Of a stretch of 64,000 bases of DNA, positions 4,174 through 61,769 are shown piece after piece. The notes under the pieces were generated by a model. It saw only the letters and a list, made by a program, of their open reading frames with translations. It had not been told where the DNA came from and made no database searches. Within the stretch, counting starts at the first letter, position 1; each line of letters starts with the position of its first letter. A program made the position numbers and the translations under genes. The stretch covers positions 928,001 through 992,000 of the forward strand of contig CAWKNZ010000002.1 in NCBI GenBank assembly GCA_963851265.1. Reading direction: 5' to 3'. This DNA is from an uncultured Gemmatimonadales bacterium. Lineage in GTDB: Bacteria > Gemmatimonadota > Gemmatimonadetes > Gemmatimonadales > Gemmatimonadaceae.

Positions 4174-5112
4174 GTGCACACACGCCGCATCGGATCGCTC
4201 ACCGTCTCGGCGGTCGGCCTCGGCTGTAACAACTTCGGGGCCCGCCTCGACGCGGCCGCGACCGCCGACGTGGTGAACGCGGCGCTGGACGCCGGGGTCA
4301 CGTTGTTCGACACGGCGGACGTGTACGGCGGGACGCGGAGCGAGGAGTTCCTCGGCCGTGCGTTAGGCGCGCGGCGCCGCGACGTGGTCGTGGCGACCAA
4401 GTTCGGCATCAAGCTCGACGATGCGCGCCCGGGCGGCGGGGCGCCCGCGTACGTCCGCCGGGCCGCGGAGGACAGTCTGCGGCGCCTCGGGACCGACGTG
4501 ATCGACCTGTACCAGTTGCACCGCCCGGACCCGGCGGTGCCGATCGGGGACACGATGGGCGCCCTCGGCGATCTCGTGCGCGAGGGGAAGGTGCGCGAGA
4601 TCGGCTGTTCCAACTTCTCGGTCGAGCAGATCCGGGAGTCGAACGCCGCGCAATCCAGCACGACGCGCGACGCCGTGCGTTTCGCGAGCGTTCAGAACGA
4701 GTACAGCCTGTTCCACCGCGAACCGGAGCACGACGGCGTGCTGGCCGAGTGCGAGCGCGAGCGGCTCGGGTTTCTGCCGTACTTCCCGCTCGCGAGCGGG
4801 CTGCTGAGCGGCAAGTACCGCCGCGGTGCGCCGGCGCCGCCCGACACGCGGTTAGGCTCGGGCGGGTGGGGGAGCGACCGGCTGAGCGACGACAATCTCG
4901 CGCGCGTGGAGCGCCTCACGGGCGTGGCCGAAGCGCGCGGGCACAGCGTGCTCGAACTCGCGATCGCGTGGCTGCTCGCGCGGCCTGCGGTGGCGTCGGT
5001 GATCGCGGGTGCGACGCGTGCCGAGCAGGTGCGGGCCAACGCGGAGGCCGCGAACTGGCGGCTGACGGAGCACGACCTGACCGCCGTCGAGCAGGCGCTC
5101 GCCGCATCCTGA
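4174..5112 (+). CDS. Aldo/keto reductase
   Basis: GLGCNNFG, FDTADVYG, ATKFG, IDLYQLHRPD, QNEYSL, PLASGLLSGKY; GTG start chosen at 4174. Confidence 0.93.
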   Translation: MHTRRIGSLTVSAVGLGCNNFGARLDAAATADVVNAALDAGVTLFDTADVYGGTRSEEFLGRALGARRRDVVVATKFGIKLDDARPGGGAPAYVRRAAEDSLRRLGTDVIDLYQLHRPDPAVPIGDTMGALGDLVREGKVREIGCSNFSVEQIRESNAAQSSTTRDAVRFASVQNEYSLFHREPEHDGVLAECERERLGFLPYFPLASGLLSGKYRRGAPAPPDTRLGSGGWGSDRLSDDNLARVERLTGVAEARGHSVLELAIAWLLARPAVASVIAGATRAEQVRANAEAANWRLTEHDLTAVEQALAAS

Positions 5113-5178
5113 TCGGCCGATCCCGTTCACCTCCGATCGGCGACCGACCCAGGCCCCTCGGTTCCCACTTTCCGACCC

Positions 5179-6051
5179 GTGTCCGATCCGACGACCGCCG
5201 GCGCGCAGCCGCCGCAGCCCGAGCAGCAACAGTCCGCGCCGGGCACCGAACGTGAGATGACGCCGACCGCCGATCACGGCGAACACTCGTACCGGGGAAG
5301 CGGCAAACTGACCGGCAAGGTGGCTCTCATCACCGGTGCGGACTCGGGCATCGGCCGCGCAGTCGCGATCGCCTTTGCCCGCGAGGGGGCGGACGTCCTG
5401 ATCTCCTACCTGAACGAGGAGGAGGACGCGGCGGAAACGCGCCGCCTCGTCGAGGCCGAGGGGCGGCGCGCGGTCGCCGTCGCGGGCGACATCGGCGAGG
5501 AGGCGCACTGCAAGGCGCTCGTGCAGCGCTGTGTCGCCGAGCTCGGCGGGATCGACGTGCTCGTGAACAACGCGGCGTTCCAGCGGACGCACGACAGCAT
5601 CACCGAGTTCTCGACCGAGGAGTGGGACCGCACCTACCGGACGAACGTGTACGCGATGTTCTGGCTCTGCCGTGAGGCGGTACCGCGGATGAAGCCGGGC
5701 AGCGCGATCATCAACACGACCTCGGTGCAGGCGTTCACGCCGGTTCCGATGCTGCTCGCCTACGCATCGACGAAGGCCGCGATCCGGAACTTCACGCAGG
5801 GGCTCGCGCAGGGCGTGGCGGACAAGGGGATTCGCGTGAACGCCGTCGCGCCGGGGCCGGTGTGGACGCCGCTCATCCCGGCGACGATGCCGCCGGAGAA
5901 GGTGAAGACGTTCGGCCAGGACGTGCCGCTCAAGCGTGCCGCGCAGCCGCGCGAACTGGCGCCGATCTACGTGCTGCTCGCCTCAGACGAGGGGAGCTAC
6001 ATCACGGGGATGGTCTACGGCGCGACCGGCGGCGACCCGATCGGTGCCTGA
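5179..6051 (+). CDS. SDR oxidoreductase (YghA/YdaD general-stress type)
   Basis: DHGEHSYRGSGKL N-terminus, TGADSGIG, NNAA, YASTK, VAPGPVWTPLIP. Confidence 0.9.
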   Translation: MSDPTTAGAQPPQPEQQQSAPGTEREMTPTADHGEHSYRGSGKLTGKVALITGADSGIGRAVAIAFAREGADVLISYLNEEEDAAETRRLVEAEGRRAVAVAGDIGEEAHCKALVQRCVAELGGIDVLVNNAAFQRTHDSITEFSTEEWDRTYRTNVYAMFWLCREAVPRMKPGSAIINTTSVQAFTPVPMLLAYASTKAAIRNFTQGLAQGVADKGIRVNAVAPGPVWTPLIPATMPPEKVKTFGQDVPLKRAAQPRELAPIYVLLASDEGSYITGMVYGATGGDPIGA

Positions 6052-6085
6052 CCGGCCCGCCGCTCACGCCTAACACTTCTCCGCC

Positions 6086-8107: not shown

Positions 8108-8120
8108 CGACTCGCGCACG

Positions 8121-9194
8121 ATGACGGCGCCGGGACGCGCCGCGGGAGATCCGGTGCCGTCGATCACGACGCGCGGCCTGCGGAAGGTGTACGCCGCCCC
8201 GCCGGCCACGCGCCGCGGCGGGCGGGGTCCCGGAGGTCCGCGGCCGTTCGGACCGCCGCCCGTCGGCGGGTCGCCTCCCCGCGGCCCGGCCGGCCCCGGC
8301 GGCGACGTCGTCGCGCTCGCCGGCCTCGACCTCGACGTGGCCGCCGGCGAGTGCTTCGGCCTGTTGGGGCCTAACGGGGCGGGGAAGACGACGACGATCG
8401 GCATTCTCACGACGCGCGTGCTCCCGACCGCGGGGGAGGCGCGCGTCGCCGGCGCCGACGTGGTGCGCGAGTCGGTGCTCGCGCGGCTCCGGCTCGGCGT
8501 CGTCCCGCAGCGCCCCAATCCCGACCGTGCGCTGACGGTCGAGGAGAACCTCCTGTTCCACGCGGCCTACTACGGGCTGGACGCGGCCGCCGCGCGGCGG
8601 CGGGCGGCCGCGCTCCTCGAGCAGTTCGGGATTGCGGACAAGGCGGCCAACAAGGTCGACGCGCTCTCGGGCGGGCAGCAGCAGCGGCTGATGATCGCGC
8701 GCGCGCTGATCCACGAGCCCGACGTGCTCTTCCTCGACGAGCCGACGGTCGGCCTCGACCCGCAGGCGCGACTCGCGCTCTGGGACGTGCTTCGCGAGCT
8801 GCGCCGCGGCGGGCGTACGGTCGTGCTGACCACGCACTACATGGAAGAGGCCGACCAGCTCTGCGACCGGCTCGCGATCGTCGATCGGGGGACGCTGCTG
8901 GCGCTCGACACGCCCGGCGCGCTCAAGGCGCGCGCGCCGGGCGGCACGCTGCTCGAGCTGACGCTCGACGGCGACGCGTCCGATGCGGCGGATCGTGCGC
9001 GCAGCGTCGGCGGGGTCCTGCGGAGCGAGGCGGCGGGCGCCATGTTGCGCGTGTATGCCGAGCACGGCGGCGCGGCACTGCCGCCGCTGCTCGAGATCGC
9101 CGAGGCGAGCGGGCGGAGCGTCCGCGACATCCGCCTCGTCCCGCCGAGCCTCGAATCGCTGTTCGTGTCGCTCACCGGGCGCGCGCTGACCTGA
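8121..9194 (+). CDS. ABC exporter ATP-binding subunit (DrrA-like)
   Basis: GPNGAGKTT, LSGGQ, FLDEPTVGLDP, TTHYMEEA. Confidence 0.93.
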   Translation: MTAPGRAAGDPVPSITTRGLRKVYAAPPATRRGGRGPGGPRPFGPPPVGGSPPRGPAGPGGDVVALAGLDLDVAAGECFGLLGPNGAGKTTTIGILTTRVLPTAGEARVAGADVVRESVLARLRLGVVPQRPNPDRALTVEENLLFHAAYYGLDAAAARRRAAALLEQFGIADKAANKVDALSGGQQQRLMIARALIHEPDVLFLDEPTVGLDPQARLALWDVLRELRRGGRTVVLTTHYMEEADQLCDRLAIVDRGTLLALDTPGALKARAPGGTLLELTLDGDASDAADRARSVGGVLRSEAAGAMLRVYAEHGGAALPPLLEIAEASGRSVRDIRLVPPSLESLFVSLTGRALT

Positions 9195-10276: not shown

Positions 10277-12313
10277 ATGGCGACTCACCTCGATCCCGAG
10301 CCGGCGACGTTGCCCGGCCGTTCGCCCGCCCTGCCGGCGGAGCACGACCTCTCAGCGATCGTCGTCGGTGGCGCGCCCGAAGCGGACGCGTGGACGATCG
10401 AGGACGCGCGCGCCCTCTACAACGTGGAAGGGTGGGGCGCGGGCTATTTCGACGTGAACGAACGCGGACGCGTGGTCGTGCGGCCGGACCGCGACCGGCC
10501 GGAGCTCGAACTCGACCTGCTCGACTTCGCGCGCGACCTCGAGGAGCAGGGCGTCGCGCTTCCGGTCCTGCTTCGGTTCAGCGACATCCTCCGCTCGCGC
10601 ATCTCGCAGCTCAGCGAGCGCTTTCAGGCCGCGATGCGGGAGTACGAGTACGACGGCGGCTACACGACGGTCTACCCGGTCAAGGTGAACCAGCAGCGGC
10701 ACGTGGTCGAGGAGATCCTCGAGCACGGGCGCCCGTACGGCGTCGGGCTCGAGTGCGGCTCCAAGCCCGAGTTGCAGGCCGTCCTCGCCGTCTCGGAGGA
10801 CGCGGACCACCTCATCGTCTGCAACGGGTACAAGGACCACGAGTTCATGCGCCTCGCGCTCATGGGGCAGAAGGTCGGACACGAGGTGTTCCTCGTGATC
10901 GAGCAGCTCTCCGAGCTGGACGTGCTGCTCGAGGTCGCGGCGGAGCTGGACGTGCGACCGACGGTGGGCGTGCGCGTGAAGCTCGCGACCGAGAGCGCGG
11001 GGCGTTGGGCGCAGAGCGCTGGCGAGAAGAGCAAGTTCGGGCTCAACCCCTCGCAGCTCGTCAAGCTCATCGACCGCCTGCGTGACGCCGGGCAGCTCGA
11101 CATCCTCAAGCTCGTTCACTTCCACCTCGGCTCGCAGATCCCCGACATCCGGTTCATCAAGTCCGGGCTGCAGGAGGTCGCGCGCTTCTACGTCGAACTG
11201 CGCAAGATGGGCGTGGAGCTGTCGCACGTCGACGTGGGTGGCGGGCTCGGCGTTGACTACGACGGGACCGGTTCCTCGCAGAGCAACGCGAGCGTGAACT
11301 ACTCGCTGCAGGAATACGCGAACGACGTCGTGTACACGATGGCGGAGGCGTGCCGCGAGGCGGAGGTGCCGATGCCGCACCTGATCTCGGAGAGCGGGCG
11401 CGCGCTGACGGCCCACCACGCGATGCTGCTGCTCAAGGTGATCGACGTGGAAAGCCAGGCCGAGCCGCCGGTGCCCACGCTCACCGACGACGATCACGGC
11501 ATCCTGCACGAGATGATCGACGACTTCGCGCTGCTGCGTGGGGAGGGCGGCGGGCGCCCGCTGACGCCGCACAAGGTCATGGCGATCTACCACGACGCGA
11601 GCTTCGCGAAGGACCGCTCGCGCCAGCTCTTCAACAGCGGCGTGCTCGACCTGCGCGGTCTCGCGCTGGCCGAGCAGATCTACTTCGCCGTGATCAACCG
11701 CATCGCGGCGATCGTGAACGCCGACCCCGAGGAGTACGAGGAGATCCACAAGGAGCTCGACGCGACGCTCGTGGACCGCTACTTCTGCAACTTCTCGCTC
11801 TTCCAGTCGCTGCCCGACAACTGGGCGATCGACCAGCTCTTCCCGATCATGCCGGTGCACCGGCTCGACGAGCGTCCGACGCGGTTAGGCACACTGCAGG
11901 ACGTGACGTGCGATTCGGACGGCAAGATCGACCGATTCGTCGGTGACCGCACCGGCCGTCCGTCGCTCGAACTGCACGAATTCCGCGACGACGAGGAGTA
12001 CGTCCTGGGCATCTTCCTCACCGGGGCCTACCAGGAGATCCTCGGCGACCTGCACAACCTCTTCGGCGACACCAACGCGGTGCACGTCAAGCTGACCGAG
12101 CGCGGCGCCGAGATCACGGACCTCGTACACGGCGACACCGTGACCGAGGTGCTCAACTACGTACAGTTCCACGCGCCCTCGCTCCTCACGACGTGGCGTC
12201 GGAAGGTGACCGCGGCCAAGTCGCTCTCGCGCAGCGAGGCCAACCAGTTCGTCGCGGATTACGTGGCCGGCCTCGACGGGTACACCTACCTCGAAGGCGA
12301 GGCCGCGCGGTGA
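10277..12313 (+). CDS. speA: Biosynthetic arginine decarboxylase
   Basis: YPVKVNQ (PLP Lys), GLECGSKPEL, HFHLGSQI, DVGGGLGVDYDG, NFSLFQSLPD, TCDSDG, GAYQEILGDLHNLFG. Confidence 0.95.
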   Translation: MATHLDPEPATLPGRSPALPAEHDLSAIVVGGAPEADAWTIEDARALYNVEGWGAGYFDVNERGRVVVRPDRDRPELELDLLDFARDLEEQGVALPVLLRFSDILRSRISQLSERFQAAMREYEYDGGYTTVYPVKVNQQRHVVEEILEHGRPYGVGLECGSKPELQAVLAVSEDADHLIVCNGYKDHEFMRLALMGQKVGHEVFLVIEQLSELDVLLEVAAELDVRPTVGVRVKLATESAGRWAQSAGEKSKFGLNPSQLVKLIDRLRDAGQLDILKLVHFHLGSQIPDIRFIKSGLQEVARFYVELRKMGVELSHVDVGGGLGVDYDGTGSSQSNASVNYSLQEYANDVVYTMAEACREAEVPMPHLISESGRALTAHHAMLLLKVIDVESQAEPPVPTLTDDDHGILHEMIDDFALLRGEGGGRPLTPHKVMAIYHDASFAKDRSRQLFNSGVLDLRGLALAEQIYFAVINRIAAIVNADPEEYEEIHKELDATLVDRYFCNFSLFQSLPDNWAIDQLFPIMPVHRLDERPTRLGTLQDVTCDSDGKIDRFVGDRTGRPSLELHEFRDDEEYVLGIFLTGAYQEILGDLHNLFGDTNAVHVKLTERGAEITDLVHGDTVTEVLNYVQFHAPSLLTTWRRKVTAAKSLSRSEANQFVADYVAGLDGYTYLEGEAAR

Positions 12314-13162: not shown

Positions 13163-13777
13163 TCAGGCCTGGCCGTAGCGCTTCGCGACCTCGCCCCAGT
13201 TGACCGTGTTCCACCACGCGTCGATGTAGTCGGGGCGGCGGTTCTGGTACTTCAGGTAATAGCTGTGCTCCCACACATCGAGGCCGAGCAGGACGGCGCT
13301 GGGACTCATACCATCCATCAGGGGGTTGTCCTGGTTAGGCGTGCTCGTGATGGCGAGCTTGTCACCCTGACGGACCAGCCACGCCCACCCCGAGCCGAAG
13401 CGCCCGACCGCGGCCGCCTTGAACTGATCGCGGAACGTGCCGAAATCGCCGAAGCTCGACCTGATGGCCGACCCGATCCCGTCGGCCGGTTCGCCGCCCG
13501 CGTTGGGGCCCATCAGCTGCCAGAACAGCGAGTGGTTCCAGTGGCCGCCGCCGTTGTTCCGGATCGGTCCGCGGACCGCCTCCGGGGCGGTGTTGAGGTT
13601 CGCGAGTAGTTGCTCGATCGACTGACCCGCCAGCTCGGGCGCCTTCTCGATCGCGGCGTTCAGGTTGGTGACGTACGCCTGGTGGTGCTTGTCGTGGTGG
13701 ATCGACATCGTCTGCGCGTCGATGTGCGGCTCGAGCGCGTCGGGCGAATAGGGAAGCGGCGGCAGCGTGAAGGCCAT
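13163..13777 (-). CDS. sodA: Mn/Fe superoxide dismutase (Mn-type signature)
   Basis: [34 protein letters not shown]. Confidence 0.93.
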
Positions 13778-16363: not shown

Positions 16364-16400
16364 CGCGCGCGCCGCGGGCGTGTTGGTGTTAGGCGCGGGC

Positions 16401-19253: not shown

Positions 19254-20123
19254 TCACGAGTCGCGACGGTGCTCCTGCAGCACGTCGCCGATCTGCGTAC
19301 ACGCGAGAACCGTCACGACGAGCAGCAGGCCGGGTACCAACGACACCCACGGCGCGACGATCAGCAGGTCGCGCCCGCCGGCGATGAGGTTGCCCCAACT
19401 CGGCGCCGGCGGCTGCACGCCGAGCCCGAGGAACGAGAGCCCGCTTTCGAGCAGCACCGCGTTGCCCACGCCGAGCGCCGTCGCGACCACCGCGGCGCCA
19501 AGCGCGTTCGGCACCACATGCCGCCAGAGGACGCGCGCCGGTGCCGCGCCGAGCGCGGCCGCGGCGGTCACGTACTCGGCGCGCACCACGCCGAGCGCCT
19601 CGGCGCGCACGAGCCGCGCGACGCCCATCCACCCGGTGAGCGCGAGCACCGCGACGGTCGTTCGGACCCCGGGGCCCCAGAGCGCGGCCACGACGAGCAG
19701 GAGCACGATGCGCGGGACGGCGAGTAGCACGTCCGCGACGGCGGTCACGGCGCGATCCGCCACGCCGCCGCGCCACGCCGCCGCGGCGCCTAACACCGTG
19801 CCCAACACCCCGGACAAGACCGACCCGCCGACGCCCACCGCGAGCGACAGCCGCGCCGCGGCGAGCGCCCTCACGAGGAGGTCGCGGCCGAACGCGTCGG
19901 TGCCGAGCGGGTGCCAGAGCCCGAGCGCGTCACGCGCGCCGGGCGGCACGAGTCGGCGCGCGAGCACGTCCCCGATCCCCTGCGCGTCGGCCGGGGCGAG
20001 CACCGGTACGACGAGCGCGGCCGCCGCGAGCACGCCGAGTGCGGTGGCCGGCCACGCGATCGCCCGGATCCGACGCGTCCGCACGCGCGGTTCCGCCCCC
20101 GCGCGGCCGTCATCGACGCGCAT
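19254..20123 (-). CDS. Peptide/nickel-type ABC permease (OppC/DppC-like)
   Basis: HPLGTDAFGRD, EYVTAAAALGA loop, LSFLGLGVQPPAPSWG. Confidence 0.9.
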   Translation of the reverse strand: MRVDDGRAGAEPRVRTRRIRAIAWPATALGVLAAAALVVPVLAPADAQGIGDVLARRLVPPGARDALGLWHPLGTDAFGRDLLVRALAAARLSLAVGVGGSVLSGVLGTVLGAAAAWRGGVADRAVTAVADVLLAVPRIVLLLVVAALWGPGVRTTVAVLALTGWMGVARLVRAEALGVVRAEYVTAAAALGAAPARVLWRHVVPNALGAAVVATALGVGNAVLLESGLSFLGLGVQPPAPSWGNLIAGGRDLLIVAPWVSLVPGLLLVVTVLACTQIGDVLQEHRRDS

Positions 20124-33775: not shown

Positions 33776-35262
<1,487 letters not shown>

Positions 35263-35263
<1 letters not shown>

Positions 35264-41721: not shown

Positions 41722-43344
41722 GTGGCCACCGTTCGCGCACGACTCGCTTCGGCGTACGCCCTCGCCCTCGGTGGAACGATCGTCGTACTCGCCGGCACGC
41801 TGTGGACCGCGCGTGGGGCCGCCGGTGACCGCGAGTTGCAGCGGTACGTGACGGAAGAGGCTGAGGTCGCGACGCGGCTGCTCCGGCAGGCCGCGGGGCC
41901 GGGGCTGCCGCTGACCGAGGTGACGGACCGGCCGATCGGCCCGCAGGTGGTGTCGCGCGTCGCGCTGCTGCTGGACGCGTTGCCCAACATCGTGATCGTC
42001 CTCGACAGCGCCGACCGGATGGTGTACCGATCGACCGACGCGCGGCTCTTGGACGTCGGCGAAGCGGACCGGATCGTCGACGCGTCGACGCTCCTGAGTC
42101 CCACCGTGTCGGGGAAACTGGACGTCGAGCGGGACACGACGGGCGCCGCGGGCGCGTACCTGCGCGCGCGCGGTCTGCCCGCACAGGAGGAAGTGCTCGT
42201 CGTGCGTCGTGACGCGCCGCGCGACCTCACGCCGATCCGGCGCATCGTGGTCGGCACGCCCACGCGCTCGGCCATCGACGCGCGGCGCGAGCTCTTCACG
42301 TCGATGCTCGCGGTCATGCCGCTCGTTCTCGTCGCGTCCGGGGGCGTCGGCTGGTGGCTCGCGGGCCGCGGCGTCCGCCCGCTCGAGCGCGTGATCGACG
42401 AGATGGAGGCGATCACGGACGGGCGCAGTCTGCACCGCCGCCTCGCCGCGGGCGAGGCGGCGCCCGAGGATGGCGACGAACTGACGCGCCTAACGACGAC
42501 GCTCAACGCCATGATCGGGCGCCTCGAGTCGTCGTTCGGCGCGCTGCGGCGGTTCACGGCCGACGCGAGCCACGAACTCAAGACGCCGCTGACGGTGCTG
42601 CGGGCGACCGTCGAGCGCGCCATGAGCGCACCGCCGCAGTCGAGCGAGCAGATGGTCGCCTTGGAGGAGGCGCTGCAGGAGGTCACGCGCATGGCGGCGC
42701 TCGTCGACAGCCTGCTCACGCTGGCGCGGTTCGACGAAGGGCGGTTCGACCTGCACCGCGAACCGGTCGCGCTCGAGCCGCTCGTCCACGACGTGCTGGA
42801 GACGGCAACGATCCTCGGCGAGGACGCGGGCCTGACGATCGAGCTGGCCGCGCTCGAGCCGGCGACGGTGCTCGGCGACGCGACGCGGCTCCGCCAGCTG
42901 TTCCTGAACCTGATCACCAACGCGATCAAGTACACGCCGCGCGGCGGGCTCGTGGAGTTGGCGCTGCGCCGCGGGGCCGGGCTGGCGAACGGCGCGGAGG
43001 GCGTGCAGCTCACGGTGCGCGACACCGGAATCGGCATCGCCGCGGCCGACCTGCCGTACATCTTCGACCGTTTCTGGCGGGCGGATCGCGCGCGGTCGCG
43101 GCGGAGTGCGCTGGGGACCGCGCTCGGCGCGACCGAGCGGGGCGGGTTCGGCCTCGGGCTCGCGATCAGTCAGTGGATCGCGCAGGCGCACGGCGGAACG
43201 ATCGCCGTCACGTCGCGGCTCACGCGCGGCACCACGTTCACCGTGACGCTGCCGACCGTCGTGGCCTCGGTCGATGCCGTCCGCGACCCGACGTTGGGCG
43301 ATGCCGAGCGCCCGGCCGGCGAACTGCGACCGGTGACGGCCTGA
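41722..43344 (+). CDS. Membrane HAMP sensor histidine kinase (CusS-like)
   Basis: Two TM segments, HAMP, FTADASHELKTPL, NAIKYT, DTGIGI, GFGLGL. Confidence 0.93.
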   Translation: MATVRARLASAYALALGGTIVVLAGTLWTARGAAGDRELQRYVTEEAEVATRLLRQAAGPGLPLTEVTDRPIGPQVVSRVALLLDALPNIVIVLDSADRMVYRSTDARLLDVGEADRIVDASTLLSPTVSGKLDVERDTTGAAGAYLRARGLPAQEEVLVVRRDAPRDLTPIRRIVVGTPTRSAIDARRELFTSMLAVMPLVLVASGGVGWWLAGRGVRPLERVIDEMEAITDGRSLHRRLAAGEAAPEDGDELTRLTTTLNAMIGRLESSFGALRRFTADASHELKTPLTVLRATVERAMSAPPQSSEQMVALEEALQEVTRMAALVDSLLTLARFDEGRFDLHREPVALEPLVHDVLETATILGEDAGLTIELAALEPATVLGDATRLRQLFLNLITNAIKYTPRGGLVELALRRGAGLANGAEGVQLTVRDTGIGIAAADLPYIFDRFWRADRARSRRSALGTALGATERGGFGLGLAISQWIAQAHGGTIAVTSRLTRGTTFTVTLPTVVASVDAVRDPTLGDAERPAGELRPVTA

Positions 43345-47337: not shown

Positions 47338-48909
47338 ATGTCCAGCGTGGTCGACGCGTCATCCGCGCGCCCGTCCCAGGTCGCTGTGCCACATGCGGAT
47401 GGCGCGGCGGACGACGACGGCTCCGACGAATTCGTCAAGGCGCTGACGCTGACCGACGCGACGATGCTCGTGGCCGGCTCGATGATCGGGTCGGGGATCT
47501 TCATCGTTTCGGCCGACATCGCGCGCACCGTCGGCTCGCCCGCCGTCCTCCTCGCGGCGTGGGGACTGACGGGAGTCATCACGTTGCTCGGCGCGCTCGC
47601 GTATGGCGAGCTCGCCGCGATGTATCCGCGGGCCGGCGGCCAGTACGTGTTCCTGCGCGAGGCGATGGGCCCGGTGATGGGCTTCCTCTACGGCTGGACA
47701 CTCTTCGTCGTGATCCAGACCGGCACGATCGCCGCGGTCGCGGTCGCGTTCGGCAAGTTCCTCGGCGTACTCGTGCCGTCGATCACCGCGGATCGGTACG
47801 CGTGGTTCCCGCGGGCCGATGTCTGCGTGGCGTTTCTCGGTTGTCGCGACGCGTCGACGCAGGCGATTCAGCTCGGGCTCACGCCGCAGCGCCTCGTCGG
47901 GCTGGCGAGCGTCTGGGTGCTCACGCTCGTGAACCTTCGGGGGGTGCGCGAGGGCAAGCTCGTCCAAACGACACTCACCGTGCTCAAGGCCGGCGCGCTC
48001 GCCGTGCTCATACTGCTCGGGCTCACGTTAGGCCGAAACGCGACGGCGCTCGCGGCGAACTTCGGCCCCGGGCGGTTTTCCCACCCGGTCGAGTACGCGG
48101 CCCCGTTCGCGCTCGTGTTCGGCTCCGCGCTGGTCGGCTCGCTGTTCTCGAGCGACGCGTGGAACAACGTCACGTTCGCGGCCGCCGAGGTGCGCAACCC
48201 GCGTCGGAATCTGCCGCTCGCGCTCGTGCTCGGCACCGGCCTCGTCACCCTGCTGTACGTGCTCGCGAACGTCGCCTACCTCAACGTGCTGCCGATGTCG
48301 GGCGTAGCCGAGGGCGCGACGGCGCTCGCGCGCGGCGTGTCGCACGCCACGCAGGACCGCGTCGCGACGGCGGTGGCGGAGGTGATCTTCGGCACGGCGG
48401 GCGTGACGATCATGGCGGTCGCGATCCTCGTGTCCACCTTCGGCTGCAACAACGGCCTCGTCCTCGCCGGGGCGCGCGTCTACTGGGCGATGGCGCGCGA
48501 CGGCGTGTTCTTTCGCAAGGCGGGCGAGTTGAACGCGAAGGGCGTTCCCGCGTTCGCCCTGTTCGCGCAAGCGGTGTGGACGACGCTGCTCTGCCTGACC
48601 GGCACGTACGGGCAGCTACTGGATTACGTGATCTTCGCGGCGCTCGTGTTCTACGCGTTCACGACCATCGGGCTGTTCGTGCTCCGCCGCACCCGCGCGG
48701 ACGCGGAGCGGCCGTACCGCGCGATCGGCTACCCGTTCCTGCCGGCGCTCTACATCTGTCTGAGCGCCGGCGTGGCGGTGTTACTCCTCCTCGCCGAGAA
48801 GACGCGCACGCAGGCCGTGTCGGGTCTCGTGCTCGTGCTCATCGGCCTGCCTGTGTACTGGCTCTGGCGCGCCCGCGGCGGCACGCCGGACCGCATCGCG
48901 GCCCGCTGA
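47338..48909 (+). CDS. APC family amino acid permease (LAT-like)
   Basis: GSMIGSGIF, YGELAAMYPRAGG, EVRNPRRNLP, MARDG. Confidence 0.92.
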   Translation: MSSVVDASSARPSQVAVPHADGAADDDGSDEFVKALTLTDATMLVAGSMIGSGIFIVSADIARTVGSPAVLLAAWGLTGVITLLGALAYGELAAMYPRAGGQYVFLREAMGPVMGFLYGWTLFVVIQTGTIAAVAVAFGKFLGVLVPSITADRYAWFPRADVCVAFLGCRDASTQAIQLGLTPQRLVGLASVWVLTLVNLRGVREGKLVQTTLTVLKAGALAVLILLGLTLGRNATALAANFGPGRFSHPVEYAAPFALVFGSALVGSLFSSDAWNNVTFAAAEVRNPRRNLPLALVLGTGLVTLLYVLANVAYLNVLPMSGVAEGATALARGVSHATQDRVATAVAEVIFGTAGVTIMAVAILVSTFGCNNGLVLAGARVYWAMARDGVFFRKAGELNAKGVPAFALFAQAVWTTLLCLTGTYGQLLDYVIFAALVFYAFTTIGLFVLRRTRADAERPYRAIGYPFLPALYICLSAGVAVLLLLAEKTRTQAVSGLVLVLIGLPVYWLWRARGGTPDRIAAR

Positions 48910-48972: not shown

Positions 48973-51144
48973 ATGGATCCCTCGCAGTCCACGCTCGTCG
49001 TTCTCGTCCTCGCCGCGAGCGGCATCGCGCTCGTCGCGGCGGTGTTGCTCGCCCGTTGGGTGCTCGCCCTCAGCCGGGGCGAGCCCGCGATGCAGCGGAT
49101 CTCGAACGCGATCCAGGAGGGCGCCGAAGCGTACCTCGCGCGGCAGTACAAGACGATCGGCGTGCTGTCCGTCGTCGTCGCGGCACTCATATACATCGGC
49201 TACGCGTTCTTCCGCCCGGCCGAGACCGGCGCGAACGCGCTCTCGGCCGGCACGCTGGCCGGCTACACCACGATCTCGTTCCTGTTAGGCGCGGTGTGTT
49301 CGGGGATCGCGGGCTACATGGGGATGTGGGTCTCGATCCGCACGAACATCCGCGTCGCGGCGGCGGCGCGGACCTCGCTCAACGCCGCGCTCCAGGCGGC
49401 GCTGCGGGGCGGGGCAGTGTCGGGGCTCTTCACCGTGGCGATGTCGCTGATCGGCGTGTCGGGGCTCTTCGCGGCGTTGCACGCGATCGCCCCGGCGGGC
49501 GTGTCGTCCGACGAGTGGACGCGGCGCATCCCGTTTCTGATCGTTGGATTCGGCTTCGGGGCGTCGTTCGTGGCGCTGTTCGCGCAACTCGGTGGCGGCA
49601 TCTACACCAAGGCCGCCGACGTCGGCGCCGACTTGGTCGGTAAGGTCGAGGCCGGCATCCCGGAGGACGATCCGCGCAACCCCGCGGTGATCGCCGACCT
49701 GGTCGGCGACAACGTCGGCGACTGCGCCGGCCGCGGCGCGGACCTGTTCGAGTCGACCGCCGCCGAGAACATCGGCGCGATGATCCTCGGGGTGCTGCTC
49801 TATCCGTTCTTCGGCGTCCGGGGCGTGTTGTTTCCGCTCGTCGTCGGCGCCGTCGGGTTGCTCGCGTCGATCGTCGGCGTGGTGGTCGTGCGCACGAGCG
49901 GCGACGAGGACCCGATGAGCGCGCTCAACCGCGGCTTCTACGTGACGTCCGCGATCGTCGCGGTCGCGCTGTTCTTCCTCTGCCGCGGCCTGCTCGGGAC
50001 GTCGAGCGCGCCCGACGCGTGGTGGCACTACTTCGCCTGCGGGATGGTCGGCCTCGCGACGGCGTTCGCGTTCGTCTACATCACGCAGTACTACACCGAG
50101 TACCGCTACCGCCCGGTACTGTCGATCGCCGAGGCGAGCCAGACCGGCCCGGCCACCAACATCATCGCCGGCCTCGCGGTCGGGATGGAGTCGACCGTGC
50201 TGCCGGTGATCACGGTCGCCATTGCGATCGTGGCGAGCTACTACCTCGGGCGCACGAGCGGGCTCGTCGACGGCTCGGGGCAGCCCGTCGGCGGGCTGTT
50301 CGGCACGGCGGTCGCGACGATGGGCATGCTCGGGACCGCCGGATACATCCTCGCGATGGACGTGTTCGGACCGATCACCGACAACGCGGGCGGCATCGTC
50401 GAGATGAGCGAGCAGCCGGAGTCGATCCGCGACAAGACGGACCGGCTGGACGCGGTCGGCAACACGACGAAGGCGCTCACGAAGGGGTACGCGATCGGGT
50501 CGGCGTCGCTCGCGGCGTTCCTGCTCTTCTCGGCGTACCTCGACGAGGTGCGCGGGCTGACCGGGCAGGAGCTGTCGGTGAACCTCGCGAAGCCGCAGGT
50601 CTTCGTCGCGGGGCTGCTCGGCGCGATGCTCGTGTTCTGGTTCTCATCGCTCGCGATGACCGCGGTGCGGAAGGCGGCGCAGAGCGTGATCACCGAGGTG
50701 CGGCGCCAGTTCCAGGAAATGCCTGGAATCATGCAGGGCACGCAGCAGCCGGACTACGGACGGTGCGTGGACATCGTCACGCTCGGGGCGCTCAAGGCGA
50801 TGGTCGTGCCGGGTGCGCTCGTGGTGTTCTTCCCGATCGTCGTCGGCCTGCTGTTCAAACTCGTCGGGCTGGGCGCTGAGGCGGTGGGCGCGTTCCTGAT
50901 GGTGGCGACCATCACCGGCATCCTCATGGCCGTGTTTCTCAACAACGGCGGCGGCGCGTGGGACAACGCCAAGAAGTACATCGAAACCGGCCACTACGGC
51001 GGGAAGCGGTCGGAGGCGCACAAGGCGGCGGTCGTCGGCGACACCGTGGGTGATCCGTTCAAGGACACGGCCGGCCCCTCGCTGCACGTGCTGATCAAGC
51101 TGCTCGCGACCATCACGCTGGTGCTCGCGCCGCTGTTCATCTGA
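48973..51144 (+). CDS. hppA: Membrane pyrophosphatase, K+-independent H+-pumping type
   Basis: GGGIYTKAADVGADLVGKVE, DNVGDCAG, GPITDNAGG, GNTTKA, GGAWDNAKK, GDPFKDTAGP. Confidence 0.95.
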   Translation: MDPSQSTLVVLVLAASGIALVAAVLLARWVLALSRGEPAMQRISNAIQEGAEAYLARQYKTIGVLSVVVAALIYIGYAFFRPAETGANALSAGTLAGYTTISFLLGAVCSGIAGYMGMWVSIRTNIRVAAAARTSLNAALQAALRGGAVSGLFTVAMSLIGVSGLFAALHAIAPAGVSSDEWTRRIPFLIVGFGFGASFVALFAQLGGGIYTKAADVGADLVGKVEAGIPEDDPRNPAVIADLVGDNVGDCAGRGADLFESTAAENIGAMILGVLLYPFFGVRGVLFPLVVGAVGLLASIVGVVVVRTSGDEDPMSALNRGFYVTSAIVAVALFFLCRGLLGTSSAPDAWWHYFACGMVGLATAFAFVYITQYYTEYRYRPVLSIAEASQTGPATNIIAGLAVGMESTVLPVITVAIAIVASYYLGRTSGLVDGSGQPVGGLFGTAVATMGMLGTAGYILAMDVFGPITDNAGGIVEMSEQPESIRDKTDRLDAVGNTTKALTKGYAIGSASLAAFLLFSAYLDEVRGLTGQELSVNLAKPQVFVAGLLGAMLVFWFSSLAMTAVRKAAQSVITEVRRQFQEMPGIMQGTQQPDYGRCVDIVTLGALKAMVVPGALVVFFPIVVGLLFKLVGLGAEAVGAFLMVATITGILMAVFLNNGGGAWDNAKKYIETGHYGGKRSEAHKAAVVGDTVGDPFKDTAGPSLHVLIKLLATITLVLAPLFI

Positions 51145-52693: not shown

Positions 52694-54043
52694 GTGAACG
52701 AGCGGTCGAACGCACGCGCGACCGCCGGCGCGCCGACGCGGCGCCGTGGGATCGGGCGCGTGACGCTCACGCAGTGGATCGTCGTCAGCATGGTCGTCGG
52801 CGTCCTGATCGGCGTCGTCGCGCCCGCGGCCGCGGTCCAGCTCAAGCCGTTGTCGAACATCTTCCTGCGGATGATCAAGTCGCTGATCGTCCCGCTGCTG
52901 TTCAGCACGCTGGTGATCGGCATCGCAGGACACGGCGACGACATGAAGCGGGTCGGCCGACTGGCGCTGCGCTCGATCATCTACTTCGAGCTCGTGACGA
53001 CTGCGGCGCTCGCCGTCGGGCTCACCGCCGTGAACCTCGTGAAGCCGGGGGTCGGCATCACGCTGCCGGCAGAGGCGGGCAAGGACATCGCCGACCTCGC
53101 GACCAAGCAGCCGACGTTAGGCGGCGTCCTGGAGCACACCGTTCCGCAGAGTTTCTTCGAGGCGGCGGCGAACAACGAGGTGCTCCAGGTCGTCTTCTTC
53201 GCGATCCTCTTCGCGGTCGCGCTCGCGCGCGTGGAGGGGCGGCCGAAGCAGTTCTTCCTGGAGTTCTGCGATTCGCTCTCGCAGATCATGTTCAAGTTCG
53301 TCGGCCTCGTGATGGCGTTCGCGCCCGTCGGGATCGGGGCTGCGATCGCCGTGACGGTCGGGAAGAGCGGAATCGGTGTGCTCAAGAATCTCGCGCTGCT
53401 CGTCGGCACACTGTACGGCGCGCTCGTCGTGTTCCTCGTGTGCGTGCTCGTTCCCGTCGCGCTCGCCTTCCGCATCCCGCTCGCGCGCTTCGTCCGCACC
53501 GTGCGCGAGCCGGCGCTGATCGCGTTCTCGACCGCGAGCTCCGAGGCCGCGCTGCCGCGAGCGATTCAGGCGATGGAGGCGTTCGGCGTTCCGCGGCGGA
53601 TCGTCGCCTTCGTCATCCCGACGGGCTACTCGTTCAACCTTGATGGCAGCACGCTGTATCTCGCGCTCGCCTCCGTGTTCGCGGCGCAGGCGGGTGGGAT
53701 TGCGATGCCGATCGGCACGCAGATCCTCATGATGATCACGCTGATGCTGACGAGTAAGGGCGTCGCTGCCGTGCCGCGCGCGTCGCTCGTCATCCTGAGC
53801 GGTGCGCTGACGCAGTTCGGGCTACCGCTTGGCGCGATCGCCGTGATCCTTGGCGTCGACGCACTGATGGACATGGCGCGCACGTCGGTCAACCTGATCG
53901 GCAACTGCCTGGCGACGGCGGTGATGGCGCGCTGGGAGGGCGAGCTAGGCGCCGAGCCGGCGCTCGCGACTGCGCAGGGCGCTGAGCTGGCGAGGCAGGA
54001 ACGGCCGGCGGCCGATCCGGACCTCCTTACCGCTCGTAGATGA
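52694..54043 (+). CDS. Dicarboxylate/amino acid:cation symporter (GltP/DctA family)
   Basis: FLRMIK, AFSTASSE, PTGYSFNLDG, TSKGVAAVP, DMART. Confidence 0.93.
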   Translation: MNERSNARATAGAPTRRRGIGRVTLTQWIVVSMVVGVLIGVVAPAAAVQLKPLSNIFLRMIKSLIVPLLFSTLVIGIAGHGDDMKRVGRLALRSIIYFELVTTAALAVGLTAVNLVKPGVGITLPAEAGKDIADLATKQPTLGGVLEHTVPQSFFEAAANNEVLQVVFFAILFAVALARVEGRPKQFFLEFCDSLSQIMFKFVGLVMAFAPVGIGAAIAVTVGKSGIGVLKNLALLVGTLYGALVVFLVCVLVPVALAFRIPLARFVRTVREPALIAFSTASSEAALPRAIQAMEAFGVPRRIVAFVIPTGYSFNLDGSTLYLALASVFAAQAGGIAMPIGTQILMMITLMLTSKGVAAVPRASLVILSGALTQFGLPLGAIAVILGVDALMDMARTSVNLIGNCLATAVMARWEGELGAEPALATAQGAELARQERPAADPDLLTARR

Positions 54044-55274: not shown

Positions 55275-55296
55275 CGGCTCGGCCGGCACGCGCGTG

Positions 55297-58626: not shown

Positions 58627-60495
<1,869 letters not shown>

Positions 60496-60497
60496 CG

Positions 60498-61769
60498 TCA
60501 GCGCGCGGTGAGGGGCGTGGGGGAGGACACGGTCGGGGACGCGCCGAGCGCGCGCATGACCGCGTCCGTGAGCGCGACCCGCACGCCCCCGATCTTGGTG
60601 TTCATGCGCGTCGGGTTGACGCGGTTGGTGAGCAGAATGATGTACGTGCGGCGCGCCGGGTCGATCCAAATCGACGTCCCGGTGAATCCGGTGTGCCCGA
60701 ATGCGCGCCGCGAGAGGTAGTGCCCGGCCGAATTGCCGCCGGTCGGCGTCTCCCACCCGATCGCGCGGCGAGAGACGGTGGTGTCCTGCGCGCGGGTGAA
60801 CAGGGCGACCGTCGCCGAATCGAACACGCGGCGGCCGTCGACCGCGCCGCCGTTGAGGTACGCGCGCGCGAGCCGCCCGAGGTCGGCGCCGGTCGAGAAC
60901 AGCCCCGCGTGCCCCGACACGCCGCCTAACGCCGCGGCGTTCTCGTCGTGCACCTCGCCCCGCAACTTGCGCTGGCGCCACGGGTCGAACTCGGTGGGCG
61001 CGATCCGCGCGAGCTCGGCGGCCGGCGGCAGGTAGCGCGTGTCGCGCATGCCGAGCGGGCCGAACACGTGCCGCTGCAGGTACGCGTCGAGCGGCTCGCC
61101 CGTGACCCGGGCGACGAGCGCGCCGAGCGTGATGAAGTTGAGGTCGCTGTAGACGTAGCGGACGCCGGGCCCGGTATCCGGCTTGGTCGCGAGCGCGAGG
61201 GCGAGCGCGGAGGCGGGGTCGGTCGCCTCCTTGTACAGCGGCCGCCACGGCGGCAGCCCCGAGCTGTGCGTCATGAGTTGGCGCACGGTGATTCGCGCCT
61301 TGCCGGGGGCGTCGGAGGGGGCGAACGCGGGGAGGTAGCGGACGACCGGACTGTCGAGCGCGACCCGGCCCGACGCCACGAGTTGCAGCATCGCCGACGT
61401 CGTGCCGACGACCTTCGTCAGCGAGGCGAGGTCCCAGAGCGTCGTCGAGTCCGGCCGCGGCGCCGTCGGGCTCCAGTCGATCCGCCCGGCGCCGAAGCCG
61501 ACCGTCTCACCCTGCGCGTCGCCGACGACCGCGTACGCGCCCGGGAAGGCGCTGTCCGCGACGGCGCGTGCGAGGACGGCGCGCATACTGTCGAGCACCG
61601 CGCCGCGCGTGCGCTCGCTCGCGAGCGCCGGCGTGTGGACCCGCTGCGCGCCCGCCCGCCCGGCGAGAAGCGCTGCCGCCGTCGTGATCGCGGCCGCGAT
61701 CGCCAGCGCGCGTGCGCGCGTCCCGTACGCCGCCCGCGGTCGCGGCCAGCGCGTTCCAGACCGCGTCAT
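60498..61769 (-). CDS. Secreted beta-lactamase-family serine hydrolase (AmiE-like)
   Basis: Signal peptide, SLTK, YSD, GEVHDENA, GHAGLFST, GHTGFTGT. Confidence 0.88.
   Translation of the reverse strand: MTRSGTRWPRPRAAYGTRARALAIAAAITTAAALLAGRAGAQRVHTPALASERTRGAVLDSMRAVLARAVADSAFPGAYAVVGDAQGETVGFGAGRIDWSPTAPRPDSTTLWDLASLTKVVGTTSAMLQLVASGRVALDSPVVRYLPAFAPSDAPGKARITVRQLMTHSSGLPPWRPLYKEATDPASALALALATKPDTGPGVRYVYSDLNFITLGALVARVTGEPLDAYLQRHVFGPLGMRDTRYLPPAAELARIAPTEFDPWRQRKLRGEVHDENAAALGGVSGHAGLFSTGADLGRLARAYLNGGAVDGRRVFDSATVALFTRAQDTTVSRRAIGWETPTGGNSAGHYLSRRAFGHTGFTGTSIWIDPARRTYIILLTNRVNPTRMNTKIGGVRVALTDAVMRALGASPTVSSPTPLTAR

What the first reader, a model, noticed from the sequence alone, without database searches (positions are those of the whole stretch)
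4362..60930. Dispersed non-palindromic heptamer GTTAGGC, a candidate undescribed DNA-level signal
Seen: 20 exact copies (13 on +, 7 on -), about one per 3 kb, with no consensus in the flanks. They are 20 of the roughly 25 TTAG/CTAA words I found; the others are at 714, in the tRNA, and near 18405, 43417 and 46138. A zero-order estimate at about 73% GC gives only 5-6 copies, and TTA/TAA/CTA words are otherwise very scarce here, so real enrichment should be larger. The motif sits in unrelated genes (sodA, speA, actB x2, actC, hppA, transporters) and between genes. Established: dispersed short words such as DNA uptake sequences, Chi, KOPS, matS and cyanobacterial HIP1 are kept this way through synonymous codon choice, and I do not recognise this word as any of them. 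Inference: it is a site for a recombination, uptake, chromosome-organisation or modification/repair system. Mixed orientation argues against a strictly polar KOPS-type role.
Basis: partly seen in the sequence, partly recalled or inferred. Interest (0 to 1): 0.88.

Follow-up and report, generated by a model that had tools for sequence, protein, structure and literature searches.

The report
Genome-wide GTTAGGC word, Gemmatimonadaceae
A soil bacterium writes the exact DNA word (C)GTTAGGC into unrelated genes, stop codons and spacers far more often than chance and against its own codon habits, much like the self tags some bacteria use for DNA uptake, and the word equals the integron recombination core.

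Summary
GTTAGGC occurs 20 times in the window, against 2.4 in shuffles. It occurs 1762 times in the 4.6-Mb genome. There it is the top 7-mer outlier (14-18x Markov orders 2-3; about 22x and 9x a synonymous-shuffle null). No single-mismatch variant exceeds 2.2x.

It is a DNA-level signal. It uses every stop-free frame, stop codons and spacers, and 999 of 1289 TTA codons lie in G-TTA-GGC. The sense-strand excess disappears once amino-acid opportunity is counted, and no replichore polarity was found.

The word is the canonical integron attC core. Relatives carry true attC arrays with it, but the dispersed copies are solitary, and integron integrase presence does not follow the trait.

In 301 genomes of the family, 79 carry the word at 3x or more a reversed-word control (21 of 77 genera). 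The trait switches on and off within genera (about 4000 copies against 4-66).

The most likely reading is a DUS/USS-like self-recognition tag (confidence about 0.4). The reader protein is unknown. ComEC and a PilQ-like secretin are family-wide and do not discriminate.

This scan already reported the same word from other windows of this genome and from another genome. New here are the family census, the within-genus contrast, the integrase test, the opportunity normalisation and a 45-kb word-free zone around parAB.

The parts
4362..4368 (+). GTTAGGC, sense xxG-TTA-GGC (Leu-Gly) in aldo/keto reductase gene 4174-5112
4851..4857 (+). GTTAGGC, sense xxG-TTA-GGC in the same aldo/keto reductase gene
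6068..6074 (-). GTTAGGC on the - strand, intergenic by my gene calls
8369..8375 (-). antisense copy read as xxG-CCT-AAC (Pro-Asn) in ABC ATPase gene 8043-9194 (+)
11884..11890 (+). sense xxG-TTA-GGC in arginine decarboxylase (speA-like) gene 10277-12313
13334..13340 (+). antisense copy read as xxG-CCT-AAC in Fe/Mn superoxide dismutase gene 13163-13777 (-)
16388..16394 (+). sense xxG-TTA-GGC near the called start of GH38 gene 16380-19247
19788..19794 (-). sense xxG-TTA-GGC in ABC permease gene 19254-20123 (-)
23168..23174 (+). sense xxG-TTA-GGC in heparinase II/III-like gene 22902-25715
26257..26263 (+). sense xxG-TTA-GGC in SpoU methylase gene 25754-26587
27098..27104 (-). antisense copy read as xGC-CTA-ACx (Leu-Thr) in aminotransferase gene 26584-27819 (+)
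30900..30906 (+). sense xxG-TTA-GGC in molybdopterin/4Fe-4S oxidoreductase (ActB-like) gene 30472-33756
32340..32346 (+). second sense copy in the same ActB-like gene
34432..34438 (+). sense xxG-TTA-GGC in NrfD-family (ActC-like) gene 33776-35263
42488..42494 (-). antisense copy read as xGC-CTA-ACx in histidine kinase gene 41722-43344 (+)
48027..48033 (+). sense xxG-TTA-GGC in amino-acid permease gene 47386-48909
49284..49290 (+). sense xxG-TTA-GGC in H+-pyrophosphatase gene 48973-51144
53116..53122 (+). sense xxG-TTA-GGC in sodium:dicarboxylate symporter gene 52694-54043
60019..60025 (-). sense xxG-TTA-GGC in sodium:solute symporter gene 58627-60495 (-)
60924..60930 (-). sense xxG-TTA-GGC in beta-lactamase-family gene 60498-61769 (-)

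Best explanation
(C/T)GTTAGGC is a strand-neutral 'self' word that a still unidentified protein reads on the DNA. It most likely works like the DNA uptake sequences of Neisseriaceae (DUS) and Pasteurellaceae (USS). On that reading, DNA fragments carrying the word are favoured during DNA exchange (uptake, or a step just after it). Alleles with the word then replace alleles without it, and the word accumulates wherever it costs least. Shown here: the word is selected or driven at the DNA level, it is orientation-neutral, it is retained at orthologous sites, it builds up with residence time, and it can be switched on or off between close relatives.
For: DNA level, not protein or codon level:
- Synonymous shuffling within genes gives 46+-7 sense and 28+-7 antisense copies, against 1023 and 267 observed.
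- 999 of 1289 TTA codons lie in G-TTA-GGC. TTA makes up 17.4% of Leu codons in the G-Leu-GGC context, against 1.0% overall.
- The word also supplies 83 of 749 TAG stops and 124 of 433 TAA stops.
- Spacers hold 282 copies, at 0.51/kb against 0.32/kb in genes. Convergent spacers reach 1.2/kb.

Strand neutrality:
- Use of coding opportunities is 9.2% for X-L-G (sense), 13.6% for X-P-N (antisense), 3.8% for [SCRG]-L-T and 0.7% for V-R-x, the frame that needs two rare codons. The 3:1 sense excess therefore reflects amino-acid supply.
- There is no regional + versus - asymmetry (combined p=0.28 over 29 bins).
- Among the 79 enriched family genomes the totals are 94477 forward and 93774 reverse.

Retention:
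- 71 of 115 G000 copies and 71 of 181 G004 copies are conserved at orthologous positions, at about 82.5% nucleotide identity. Any 7-mer window is conserved 35% of the time.

Accumulation with residence:
- Use of opportunities rises from 5.2% in the lowest codon-score decile to 11.6-12.9% in the upper quartile.

Strength:
- In G012 the word is created by amino-acid changes in RpoB.
- Density reaches 1.3/kb, which is in the range I recall for DUS/USS.

Spacing:
- Close neighbours are depleted: the 5% gap quantile is 324 bp, against 133 bp for an exponential.

Machinery that is necessary but not sufficient:
- ComEC was found in 21 of 21 relatives.
- G000 has DprA, three HHH_3 (ComEA-type) proteins and two secretins.
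- A PilQ-like secretin was found in 292 of 301 family genomes, all matches below the model's curated cut-off.

Literature:
- DUS/USS inside genes also sit in the least costly frames (10.1101/2025.10.24.684340, passages read).
Against: - There is no direct evidence of uptake bias or of natural transformation in this family. Searches for Gemmatimon* with 'DNA uptake' and for Gemmatimonadetes with 'uptake sequence' found nothing on the topic.
- The competence genes tested do not discriminate enriched from non-enriched genomes. No receptor candidate was found.
- About half of DUS/USS lie in terminators, often as inverted pairs. Here only 6 adjacent opposite-strand pairs lie within 50 bp among 1762 copies, and 73% of copies lie wholly inside genes.
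- Non-enriched relatives show no alternative word, so no 'dialect' was found: G009 156 kb, G274 228 kb and G118 98 kb samples.
- In G051 all four contigs carry the word at 0.6-0.95/kb, including a small circular integrase-bearing element. A cell-intrinsic process would explain that at least as well.
- Identity with the integron core would be a coincidence of roughly 1 in 8192 under a pure uptake reading.
Confidence: 0.4

Rival explanations
1. The word is an integron-linked or tyrosine-recombinase-linked genomic site. The dispersed duplex words would be R-box half-sites read by IntI or by a Xer/IntI-type relative. They could act as landing pads for cassettes (attG-like), or as binding sites of a domesticated recombinase.
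For: The word equals the canonical attC R' core, and its complement equals R'' (PMC12901181). The same order carries true attC arrays GCCTAAC...GTTAGGC next to intI. The -1 base preference of the dispersed copies (C 79%, T 14%) matches the two boxes of those attC sites: C before R' and T before the complement of R''. IntI can insert cassettes at non-classical genomic attG sites (Loot 2024, as cited in PMC12901181).
Against: Dispersed copies are solitary: only 8 of 392 adjacent -/+ pairs lie at attC-like spacing of 50-150 bp. The attC covariance model found 1 match in G000, against 82 in G015, but only 150 of about 7000 candidates were scored per genome. IntI over the cut-off does not follow the trait. 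It is found in enriched G003, G004, G060 and G160, is split, degraded or not found in enriched G000, G001, G002, G008 and G012, and is found in non-enriched G005-G007, G009, G010, G013, G014, G018-G020 and G118. Most copies sit in frame inside conserved housekeeping genes and arose by point substitution, not insertion.
Confidence: 0.15
2. The word is an epigenetic self mark. It would be the target of a DNA methyltransferase, and its methylated form would be read by a defence, repair or transformation system, as reported for HIP1 in cyanobacteria.
For: HIP1 is another hyper-abundant octamer. It is recognised by two methylases and is reported to enhance transformation in a methylation-dependent way (PMC13756078, abstract read). 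An on/off trait within genera fits gain or loss of one enzyme. All replicons of G051, including a small integrative element, carry the word at similar density.
Against: No methylation data could be obtained; only assembled contigs of a soil metagenome hold the sequence. No methylase candidate was tested. Known restriction-modification targets are usually avoided in genomes, not enriched (recalled).
Confidence: 0.12
3. The word is a Chi-like recombination signal read by the AddAB/AdnAB-type helicase-nuclease. It would protect and recombine DNA that carries it.
For: The word is a non-palindromic 7-8-mer of a density seen for Chi words (recalled), and it is enriched in native DNA. G000 encodes two adjacent PD-(D/E)XK nuclease ORFs typical of AddAB/AdnAB (C3:244523-248949).
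Against: No orientation bias remains beyond coding opportunity, whereas known Chi words are skewed with replication (recalled). RecC was not found. The enrichment (14-18x) and the rewriting of amino acids exceed what is known for Chi (recalled).
Confidence: 0.1
4. The word is the binding site of a nucleoid or chromosome-organisation protein that is kept away from the partition/origin zone.
For: The longest word-free gap of G000 (45,086 bp, C1:182876-227962) holds mnmG, parA, parB and mnmE. About 17 copies would be expected there at the genome-wide density. It holds 0 of 121 X-L-G opportunities and 0 of 65 exact G-Leu-GGC contexts. A 15-kb gap covers dnaA. G001 and G004 show several 11-18-kb gaps in the same neighbourhood. 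Short-range repulsion of copies was seen.
Against: G012, the densest relative examined, has no depletion around parB (a 948-bp gap). G004 has 13 copies within +-15 kb of parB. Known nucleoid-occlusion and macrodomain sites are palindromic and number tens to about a hundred (recalled).
Confidence: 0.08
5. The word is a by-product of a mutation or repair bias, such as a very-short-patch-like repair or methyl-cytosine decay. No reader with a function would then exist.
For: All replicons of a cell are equally marked. The one-transition neighbour GTTGGGC is mildly enriched at 2.0-2.2x.
Against: The commonest orthologous alternative is GCTCGGC, two substitutions away and including a transversion. 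No variant is depleted enough to be a consumed precursor. Copies are retained above background. The magnitude far exceeds known repair-driven word biases (recalled).
Confidence: 0.04

Closest known systems
DNA uptake sequences: DUS of Neisseriaceae (receptor: minor pilin ComP, recalled) and USS of Pasteurellaceae (minor pilin ComN predicted as receptor; 10.1101/2025.06.16.659825, search listing only)
   Same: An exact short non-palindromic word at about 0.4-1.3 per kb. It is equal on both strands and written into genes in the least costly frames. It is retained between species, lineage-restricted, and poorer in atypical genes.
   Different: The phylum is different (Gemmatimonadota). The word is only 7-8 bp long. 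It is rarely found in inverted pairs or terminators. No uptake bias has been shown and no receptor is known. The trait is on or off within genera, with no replacement dialect found. The word is identical to the integron core.
Integron attC/attI core site (R' GTTRRRY, R'' RYYYAAC) and genomic attG sites
   Same: The 7-mer is the same, and the -1 base preference matches that of the attC sites of the same order. Integrons are common in the order: intI is over the cut-off in 13 of 21 relatives.
   Different: The dispersed copies lack the paired inverse core, the hairpin and the cassette context. They arise by point substitution inside housekeeping genes. IntI presence does not follow the trait.
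HIP1 (GCGATCGC) of cyanobacteria
   Same: A hyper-abundant octamer, conserved at the level of a clade and now linked to transformation (PMC13756078, abstract).
   Different: HIP1 is palindromic and a known methylase target. Here the word is asymmetric, and its methylation state is unknown.
Chi sites of RecBCD/AddAB
   Same: A lineage-specific non-palindromic 5-8-mer, over-represented in native DNA. An AddAB/AdnAB-like operon is present.
   Different: There is no replication-linked polarity, the enrichment is much stronger, and amino acids are changed to make the word.

Membership tests
DNA uptake sequences (DUS/USS) | Exact word hyper-abundant genome-wide, about equal on both strands | tested here: met
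   1762 copies, 885 + and 877 -, at 14-18x expectation. In the enriched family genomes the totals are 94477 forward and 93774 reverse.
DNA uptake sequences (DUS/USS) | Competent cells preferentially take up DNA carrying the word | not testable with these tools
   This needs an uptake or transformation competition assay in a cultured enriched strain.
DNA uptake sequences (DUS/USS) | A dedicated receptor (a minor type IV pilin in the known cases) | not tested
   No pilin candidate was examined. A PilQ-like secretin was found in 292 of 301 genomes and ComEC in 21 of 21, both regardless of the trait.
DNA uptake sequences (DUS/USS) | Core competence machinery encoded | tested here: met
   ComEC, DprA, three HHH_3 proteins and two secretins were found in G000. 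These are widespread genes, so this is a weak test.
DNA uptake sequences (DUS/USS) | Frequent placement in terminators, often as inverted pairs | tested here: not met
   6 adjacent opposite-strand pairs lie within 50 bp among 1762 copies, and 73% of copies lie inside genes. Only a 2-4-fold excess in convergent spacers was seen.
DNA uptake sequences (DUS/USS) | Related lineages carry dialects of the word | tested here: inconclusive
   The emphasis shifts between CGTTAGG and GTTAGGC in G008 and G012 versus genus g1. No other word was found in the G009, G274 or G118 samples.
Integron attC site | R' core GTTRRRY | tested here: met
   Word identity. The consensus was read in PMC12901181.
Integron attC site | Paired inverse core R'' with an imperfect hairpin, about 57-141 bp | tested here: not met
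   8 of 392 adjacent -/+ pairs lie at 50-150 bp, and 5 of these fold like attC. The covariance model found 1 match in G000, with 150 of 7003 candidates scored.
Integron attC site | Lies in a cassette array next to intI/attI, and co-occurs with IntI | tested here: not met
   The copies are spread over all 12 contigs, inside housekeeping genes. IntI presence is unrelated to the trait.
Chi | Orientation skew with replication direction | tested here: not met
   No regional strand asymmetry was found after controlling for coding opportunity. The replichores of this draft genome are not known, so the test is indirect.
Chi | Read by RecBCD or AddAB | tested here: inconclusive
   RecC was not found in a 94% complete genome. 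Two adjacent PDDEXK_1 ORFs are present.
KOPS/SRS | Strong ori-to-ter polarity | tested here: not met
   In G004:C1 1-400 kb the counts are 103 + and 155 -.
HIP1-type methylase word | Palindromic methylase target | tested here: not met
   The word is not a palindrome. Its methylation could not be tested.

The most novel reading that the evidence does not exclude
The identity with the integron core is functional. These Gemmatimonadaceae would have tuned a DNA-exchange specificity (an uptake receptor, or a Xer/IntI-derived reader) to the universal attC core. Their own chromosomes would then be marked as 'self', and integron cassette arrays from any neighbour would be preferentially imported. That would couple natural transformation to cassette capture genome-wide.
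Probability: 0.12. Interest if true: 0.92.

Novelty: new variant of a known kind. Interest (0 to 1): 0.78.

Why it matters
Uptake-type self words are established in only two proteobacterial families, with HIP1 in cyanobacteria now proposed as a third. A comparable word in Gemmatimonadota would be a further, independent case.

- It is present in about a quarter of 301 family genomes sampled.
- It is strong enough to rewrite RpoB residues.
- It switches on and off between species whose RpoB proteins are 89-93% identical.

It also offers a natural experiment on how such words arise and decay. The identity with the integron core raises a testable link between DNA exchange and cassette capture.

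On the practical side, the word distorts codon statistics. It accounts for 77% of TTA codons, 11% of TAG stops and 29% of TAA stops in this genome.

Tried and rejected
- **Part of a longer repeat?** Rejected. There is no flank consensus, and the most frequent 47-mer occurs 3 times.
- **attC origin of the dispersed copies.** Rejected.
- **Transcription-strand or RNA-level signal.** Rejected by opportunity normalisation, and by spacer copies showing no orientation relative to neighbouring genes: 40 vs 35 in '>>' spacers and 45 vs 40 in '<<' spacers.
- **Replichore polarity.** Not found.
- **Dialect search.** Nothing found in the G009, G274 and G118 samples. The only outlier in G118 and G274 was a tandem heptamer array.
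- **IntI, ComEC and PilQ-like secretin as correlates of the trait.** None discriminates.
- **parS search.** A recalled 16-mer consensus gave no site at <=2 mismatches and two unrelated sites at 3. A scan for repeated palindromes found only GC-rich words. This was a dead end.
- **Deamination or precursor models.** They do not fit the variant counts.
- **CTG-to-TTG-to-TTA path.** Dropped, because CTG is equally scarce in the word-free zone.
- **Sequencing runs.** Only Logan contigs of one soil-metagenome study hold part of the stretch, and no RNA holder is listed. No raw reads were available, so read laying was not used and nothing can be said on nicks, ends or expression.
- **Rfam on the split intI region.** No match.
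- **Literature.** The bare word returns primer noise. No paper on this word or on uptake sequences in Gemmatimonadota was found.
- **Not used.** Structure prediction, fold search, complex prediction, the protein-atlas search, the search for homologous proteins and the search of protein representatives, because no candidate reader protein emerged.


Full report
**Observation.** GTTAGGC occurs 20 times in the window at the coordinates given, 13 on + and 7 on -. Dinucleotide-preserving shuffles give a mean of 2.38 and a maximum of 8, and 0 of 100 reach 20. The window holds 25 TTAG/CTAA words. The window is G000:C2:928001-992000 of a 4.6-Mb, 12-contig, 73% G+C genome. The best relatives of its ParB are Gemmatimonadaceae and Gemmatimonadales MAGs.

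**Genome-wide statistics.** The genome holds 1762 copies, 885 + and 877 -. Markov expectations are 396, 160, 96 and 126 for orders 0-3. The word ranks first by z-score under orders 1-3. It also ranks first by ratio among 4735 7-mers with at least 100 copies. Orders 4-5 'explain' it only because its sub-words are nearly private to it: 1762 of 1794 TTAGGC are preceded by G. The 21 single-mismatch variants have observed/expected ratios of 0.15-2.21, and only GTTGGGC is mildly raised. The flanks add C (79%) or T (14%) at -1 and G (54%) at +1. There is no longer consensus, and the most frequent 47-mer occurs three times.

**Where the copies lie.** I made my own gene calls from a codon-usage log-odds score (3729 genes, 88% coding). 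These are approximate. They give 999 sense copies as xxG-TTA-GGC, 195 antisense as xxG-CCT-AAC, 71 antisense as xGC-CTA-ACx and 24 sense as GTT-AGG-C. A further 191 straddle a gene end and 282 lie in spacers.
- The word holds 999 of 1289 TTA codons.
- It supplies 83 of 749 TAG stops (GT-TAG-GC).
- It supplies 124 of 433 TAA stops (GCC-TAA-C).
- Shuffling synonymous codons within each gene keeps the TTA count, so it is a conservative null. It gives 46+-7 sense and 28+-7 antisense copies, against 1023 and 267 observed.
- Spacer density is 0.51/kb against 0.32/kb in genes. It is highest in convergent spacers (1.2/kb) and lowest in divergent ones (0.33/kb).

**Orientation.** Word orientation follows gene orientation along the contigs, but this reflects amino-acid supply. 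Use of available contexts is 9.2% of 10786 for X-L-G, 13.6% of 1423 for X-P-N, 3.8% of 1870 for [SCRG]-L-T and 0.7% of 3400 for V-R-x. The last is the frame that needs two rare codons. Spacer copies show no orientation relative to their neighbours. I compared use in + and - genes within 150-kb bins and found no regional asymmetry (Fisher combined p=0.28 over 29 bins). The replichores of this draft genome are unknown, so this test is indirect. The word is thus strand-neutral, which speaks against KOPS-type and classical Chi-type polarity.

**Spacing and gene class.** Gaps between copies are near-exponential (CV 1.07), but close neighbours are depleted: the 5% quantile is 324 bp, against 133 bp expected. 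Use of opportunities rises with native codon usage, from 5.2% in the lowest decile to 11.6-12.9% in the upper quartile. This happens although TTA is the least native Leu codon. The pattern fits accumulation with residence time. One caveat is that low-scoring calls include false genes.

**Identity of the word.** In the non-enriched relatives G015, G013 and G017 the word occurs as GCCTAAC...GTTAGGC pairs. The pairs are 83-140 bp apart, recur every 500-650 bp, and have conserved inner arms.
- Twenty-nine of the 37 pairs were aligned into a hairpin model.
- The model finds 82, 28 and 14 matches in those three genomes, counting both strands.
- A degraded intI abuts one array (G015:C80).

These are integron attC sites, and the word is the canonical R' core (GTTRRRY) with inverse core R'' (RYYYAAC) (PMC12901181, passages read). 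Integron integrase (TIGR02249) is over its cut-off in 13 of 21 relatives.

**The dispersed copies are not attC sites.** Only 8 of 392 adjacent -/+ pairs lie at 50-150 bp, and five of these fold like attC. The five lie at C6:1592 (next to a split intI) and at four places in C10:188.9-203.8 kb. The model found one weak match in G000, although only 150 of 7003 candidates were scored. IntI does not follow the trait.
- It is intact in enriched G003, G004, G060 and G160.
- It is split, fragmentary, degraded or not found in enriched G000, G001, G002, G008 and G012.
- It is present in many non-enriched genomes, including G118.

**Distribution.** Among 21 relatives, the 8-mer CGTTAGGC is abundant in all five genomes of the genus (727-2415 copies), in G008 (605) and in G012 (6360). 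It is rare (6-65 copies) in the other 14. In 301 genomes of the family (77 genera), 79 genomes carry it at 3x or more a reversed-word control. By genus, 21 have a median of 3x or more and 8 more lie at 1.5-3x. The distribution is bimodal. The control word is imperfect, because the motif contains stop-codon triplets.

Seven unpublished genomes (G011, G045, G046, G144, G259, G277, G305) count only in the denominators. None reaches 3x. G011 is also a row in the rpoB tree.

An rpoB tree of 18 genomes places G012 outside a clade of non-enriched G009 plus the genus. Two changes are needed, and a single origin is not excluded. G008 and G002 lacked rpoB, and the G005 fragment was dropped.

**Within-genus contrast.** Genus g54 holds five genomes with 3244-4141 copies and three with 4-66.
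- RpoB is 96.1% identical between the enriched pair G060 and G160.
- RpoB is 89-93% identical between enriched and non-enriched members.
- rpoB carries 10 and 9 copies in G060 and G160, and none in G274, G297 or the G118 fragment.
- The counterpart codons are CTC or CTG.

Samples of G009 (156 kb), G274 (228 kb) and G118 (98 kb) show no replacement word. In G008 and G012 the emphasis shifts slightly, with CGTTAGG at least as frequent as GTTAGGC. In G012, several RpoB residues differ from all relatives in ways that create the word, for example LPDG to LPNG and RLAG to RLGG.

**Retention.** G000 and G004 align at about 82.5% identity. Of 115 G000 copies in aligned DNA, 71 are conserved in G004. 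Of 181 G004 copies, 71 are conserved in G000. Any 7-mer window is conserved 35% of the time. That control is generous, because the word spans several synonymous positions. The commonest alternative is GCTCGGC, which is two changes away, followed by GTTGGGC. One rpoB site (A-L-G) carries the word in G000, G001, G004 and G012.

**Machinery.**
- ComEC was found in 21 of 21 relatives.
- G000 has DprA, three HHH_3 proteins and two secretins.
- A PilQ-like secretin was found in 292 of 301 family genomes, all matches below the model's curated cut-off.

None of these separates on from off genomes. RecC was not found, but an AddAB/AdnAB-like pair of nuclease ORFs is present.

**Replicons.** In G051 (4 contigs, 100% complete), samples of the 5.3-, 1.1- and 1.0-Mb contigs and of the 21-kb contig hold 0.62, 0.79, 0.61 and 0.95 copies per kb. 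The 21-kb contig repeats its first 6 kb at an offset of 14,997 bp. It is therefore a circular element of about 15 kb, and it encodes an Arm-type tyrosine integrase and a DUF5906 protein.

**Reading.** The data show a word that something reads on duplex or single-stranded DNA without regard to strand. It spreads by substitution wherever it costs least, persists between species, and can appear or vanish between close relatives. The nearest known behaviour is that of DUS/USS. These are also placed in the cheapest frames (10.1101/2025.10.24.684340), and their spread is explained by biased uptake plus recombination (recalled). I give that reading about 0.4.

It differs from DUS/USS in several ways.
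- It has almost no inverted pairs or terminator use.
- It has no dialects.
- Its competence genes do not discriminate on from off genomes.
- All replicons are marked equally.

The exact identity with the integron core is unlikely by chance, at roughly 1 in 8192 for a given 7-mer. It keeps a recombinase-linked or cassette-linked reading alive, although IntI itself fails as a correlate. Methylation-dependent recognition as in HIP1 (PMC13756078, abstract), a Chi-like role and a chromosome-organisation role remain possible.

**Prior work in this scan and in print.** Earlier follow-ups reported the same word from at least eight other windows of this genome and from another genome. They reached the same DUS/USS-like reading, and several noted the integron-core identity. 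I found the attC identity independently before reading those notes. My literature searches found no paper on this word or on uptake sequences in this phylum. Subscription journals are not covered.

Noticed in passing
G000:C1:182876-227962 (outside the window); also C1:2107-17073: The longest word-free gap of the genome (45,086 bp, against about 19.5 kb expected for the longest gap of a random process) holds mnmG, parA, parB and mnmE. It contains 0 of 121 X-L-G opportunities. A 15-kb gap covers dnaA. G001 and G004 have several 11-18-kb gaps nearby, but G012 has none. No canonical parS was found. The cause is unexplained.
   Followed up: partly
G000:C6:2954-7469 (locus L059): The integron integrase gene of G000 is split. 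The N-terminal SAM-like domain and most of the catalytic domain end near 5205. The last catalytic segment lies in a 123-aa ORF at 2954-3322. About 1.9 kb lies between them, with a 529-aa ORF that has no Pfam match. Rfam found no intron. An attC-like site lies at C6:1592-1708.
   Followed up: partly
G000:C10:188936-203792: There are four attC-like hairpins (GCCTAAC...GTTAGGC, 97-121 bp) within 15 kb and no integrase match beside them. This is a possible cluster of attC sites without an integrase.
   Followed up: partly
G118 loci L142 (612-700, 5693-5815) and L143 (13099-13283); G274 loci L127, L130, L132, L133: Short tandem arrays of a heptamer (AGCAGAA/GAAAGCA)n occur as inverted pairs 50-100 bp apart, in the two non-enriched g54 genomes sampled. 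G000 has only 7 copies of the 8-mer AGAAAGCA.
   Followed up: no
G051:C4 (loci L241, L242): The 20,952-bp contig is a circular element of about 15.0 kb assembled with a 6-kb overlap. It encodes an Arm-type tyrosine integrase and a DUF5906 protein, and it carries the host word at about 0.95/kb.
   Followed up: partly
G000 genome-wide, G-Leu-GGC contexts: CTG makes up only 8.6% of Leu codons between a G-ending codon and GGC, against 33.7% overall. The same holds in the word-free zone (7 of 65). This is therefore a context bias independent of the word.
   Followed up: no
window 38098-38170: A tRNA gene, the only Rfam match in the window. It holds one of the five TTAG words outside the motif.
   Followed up: no
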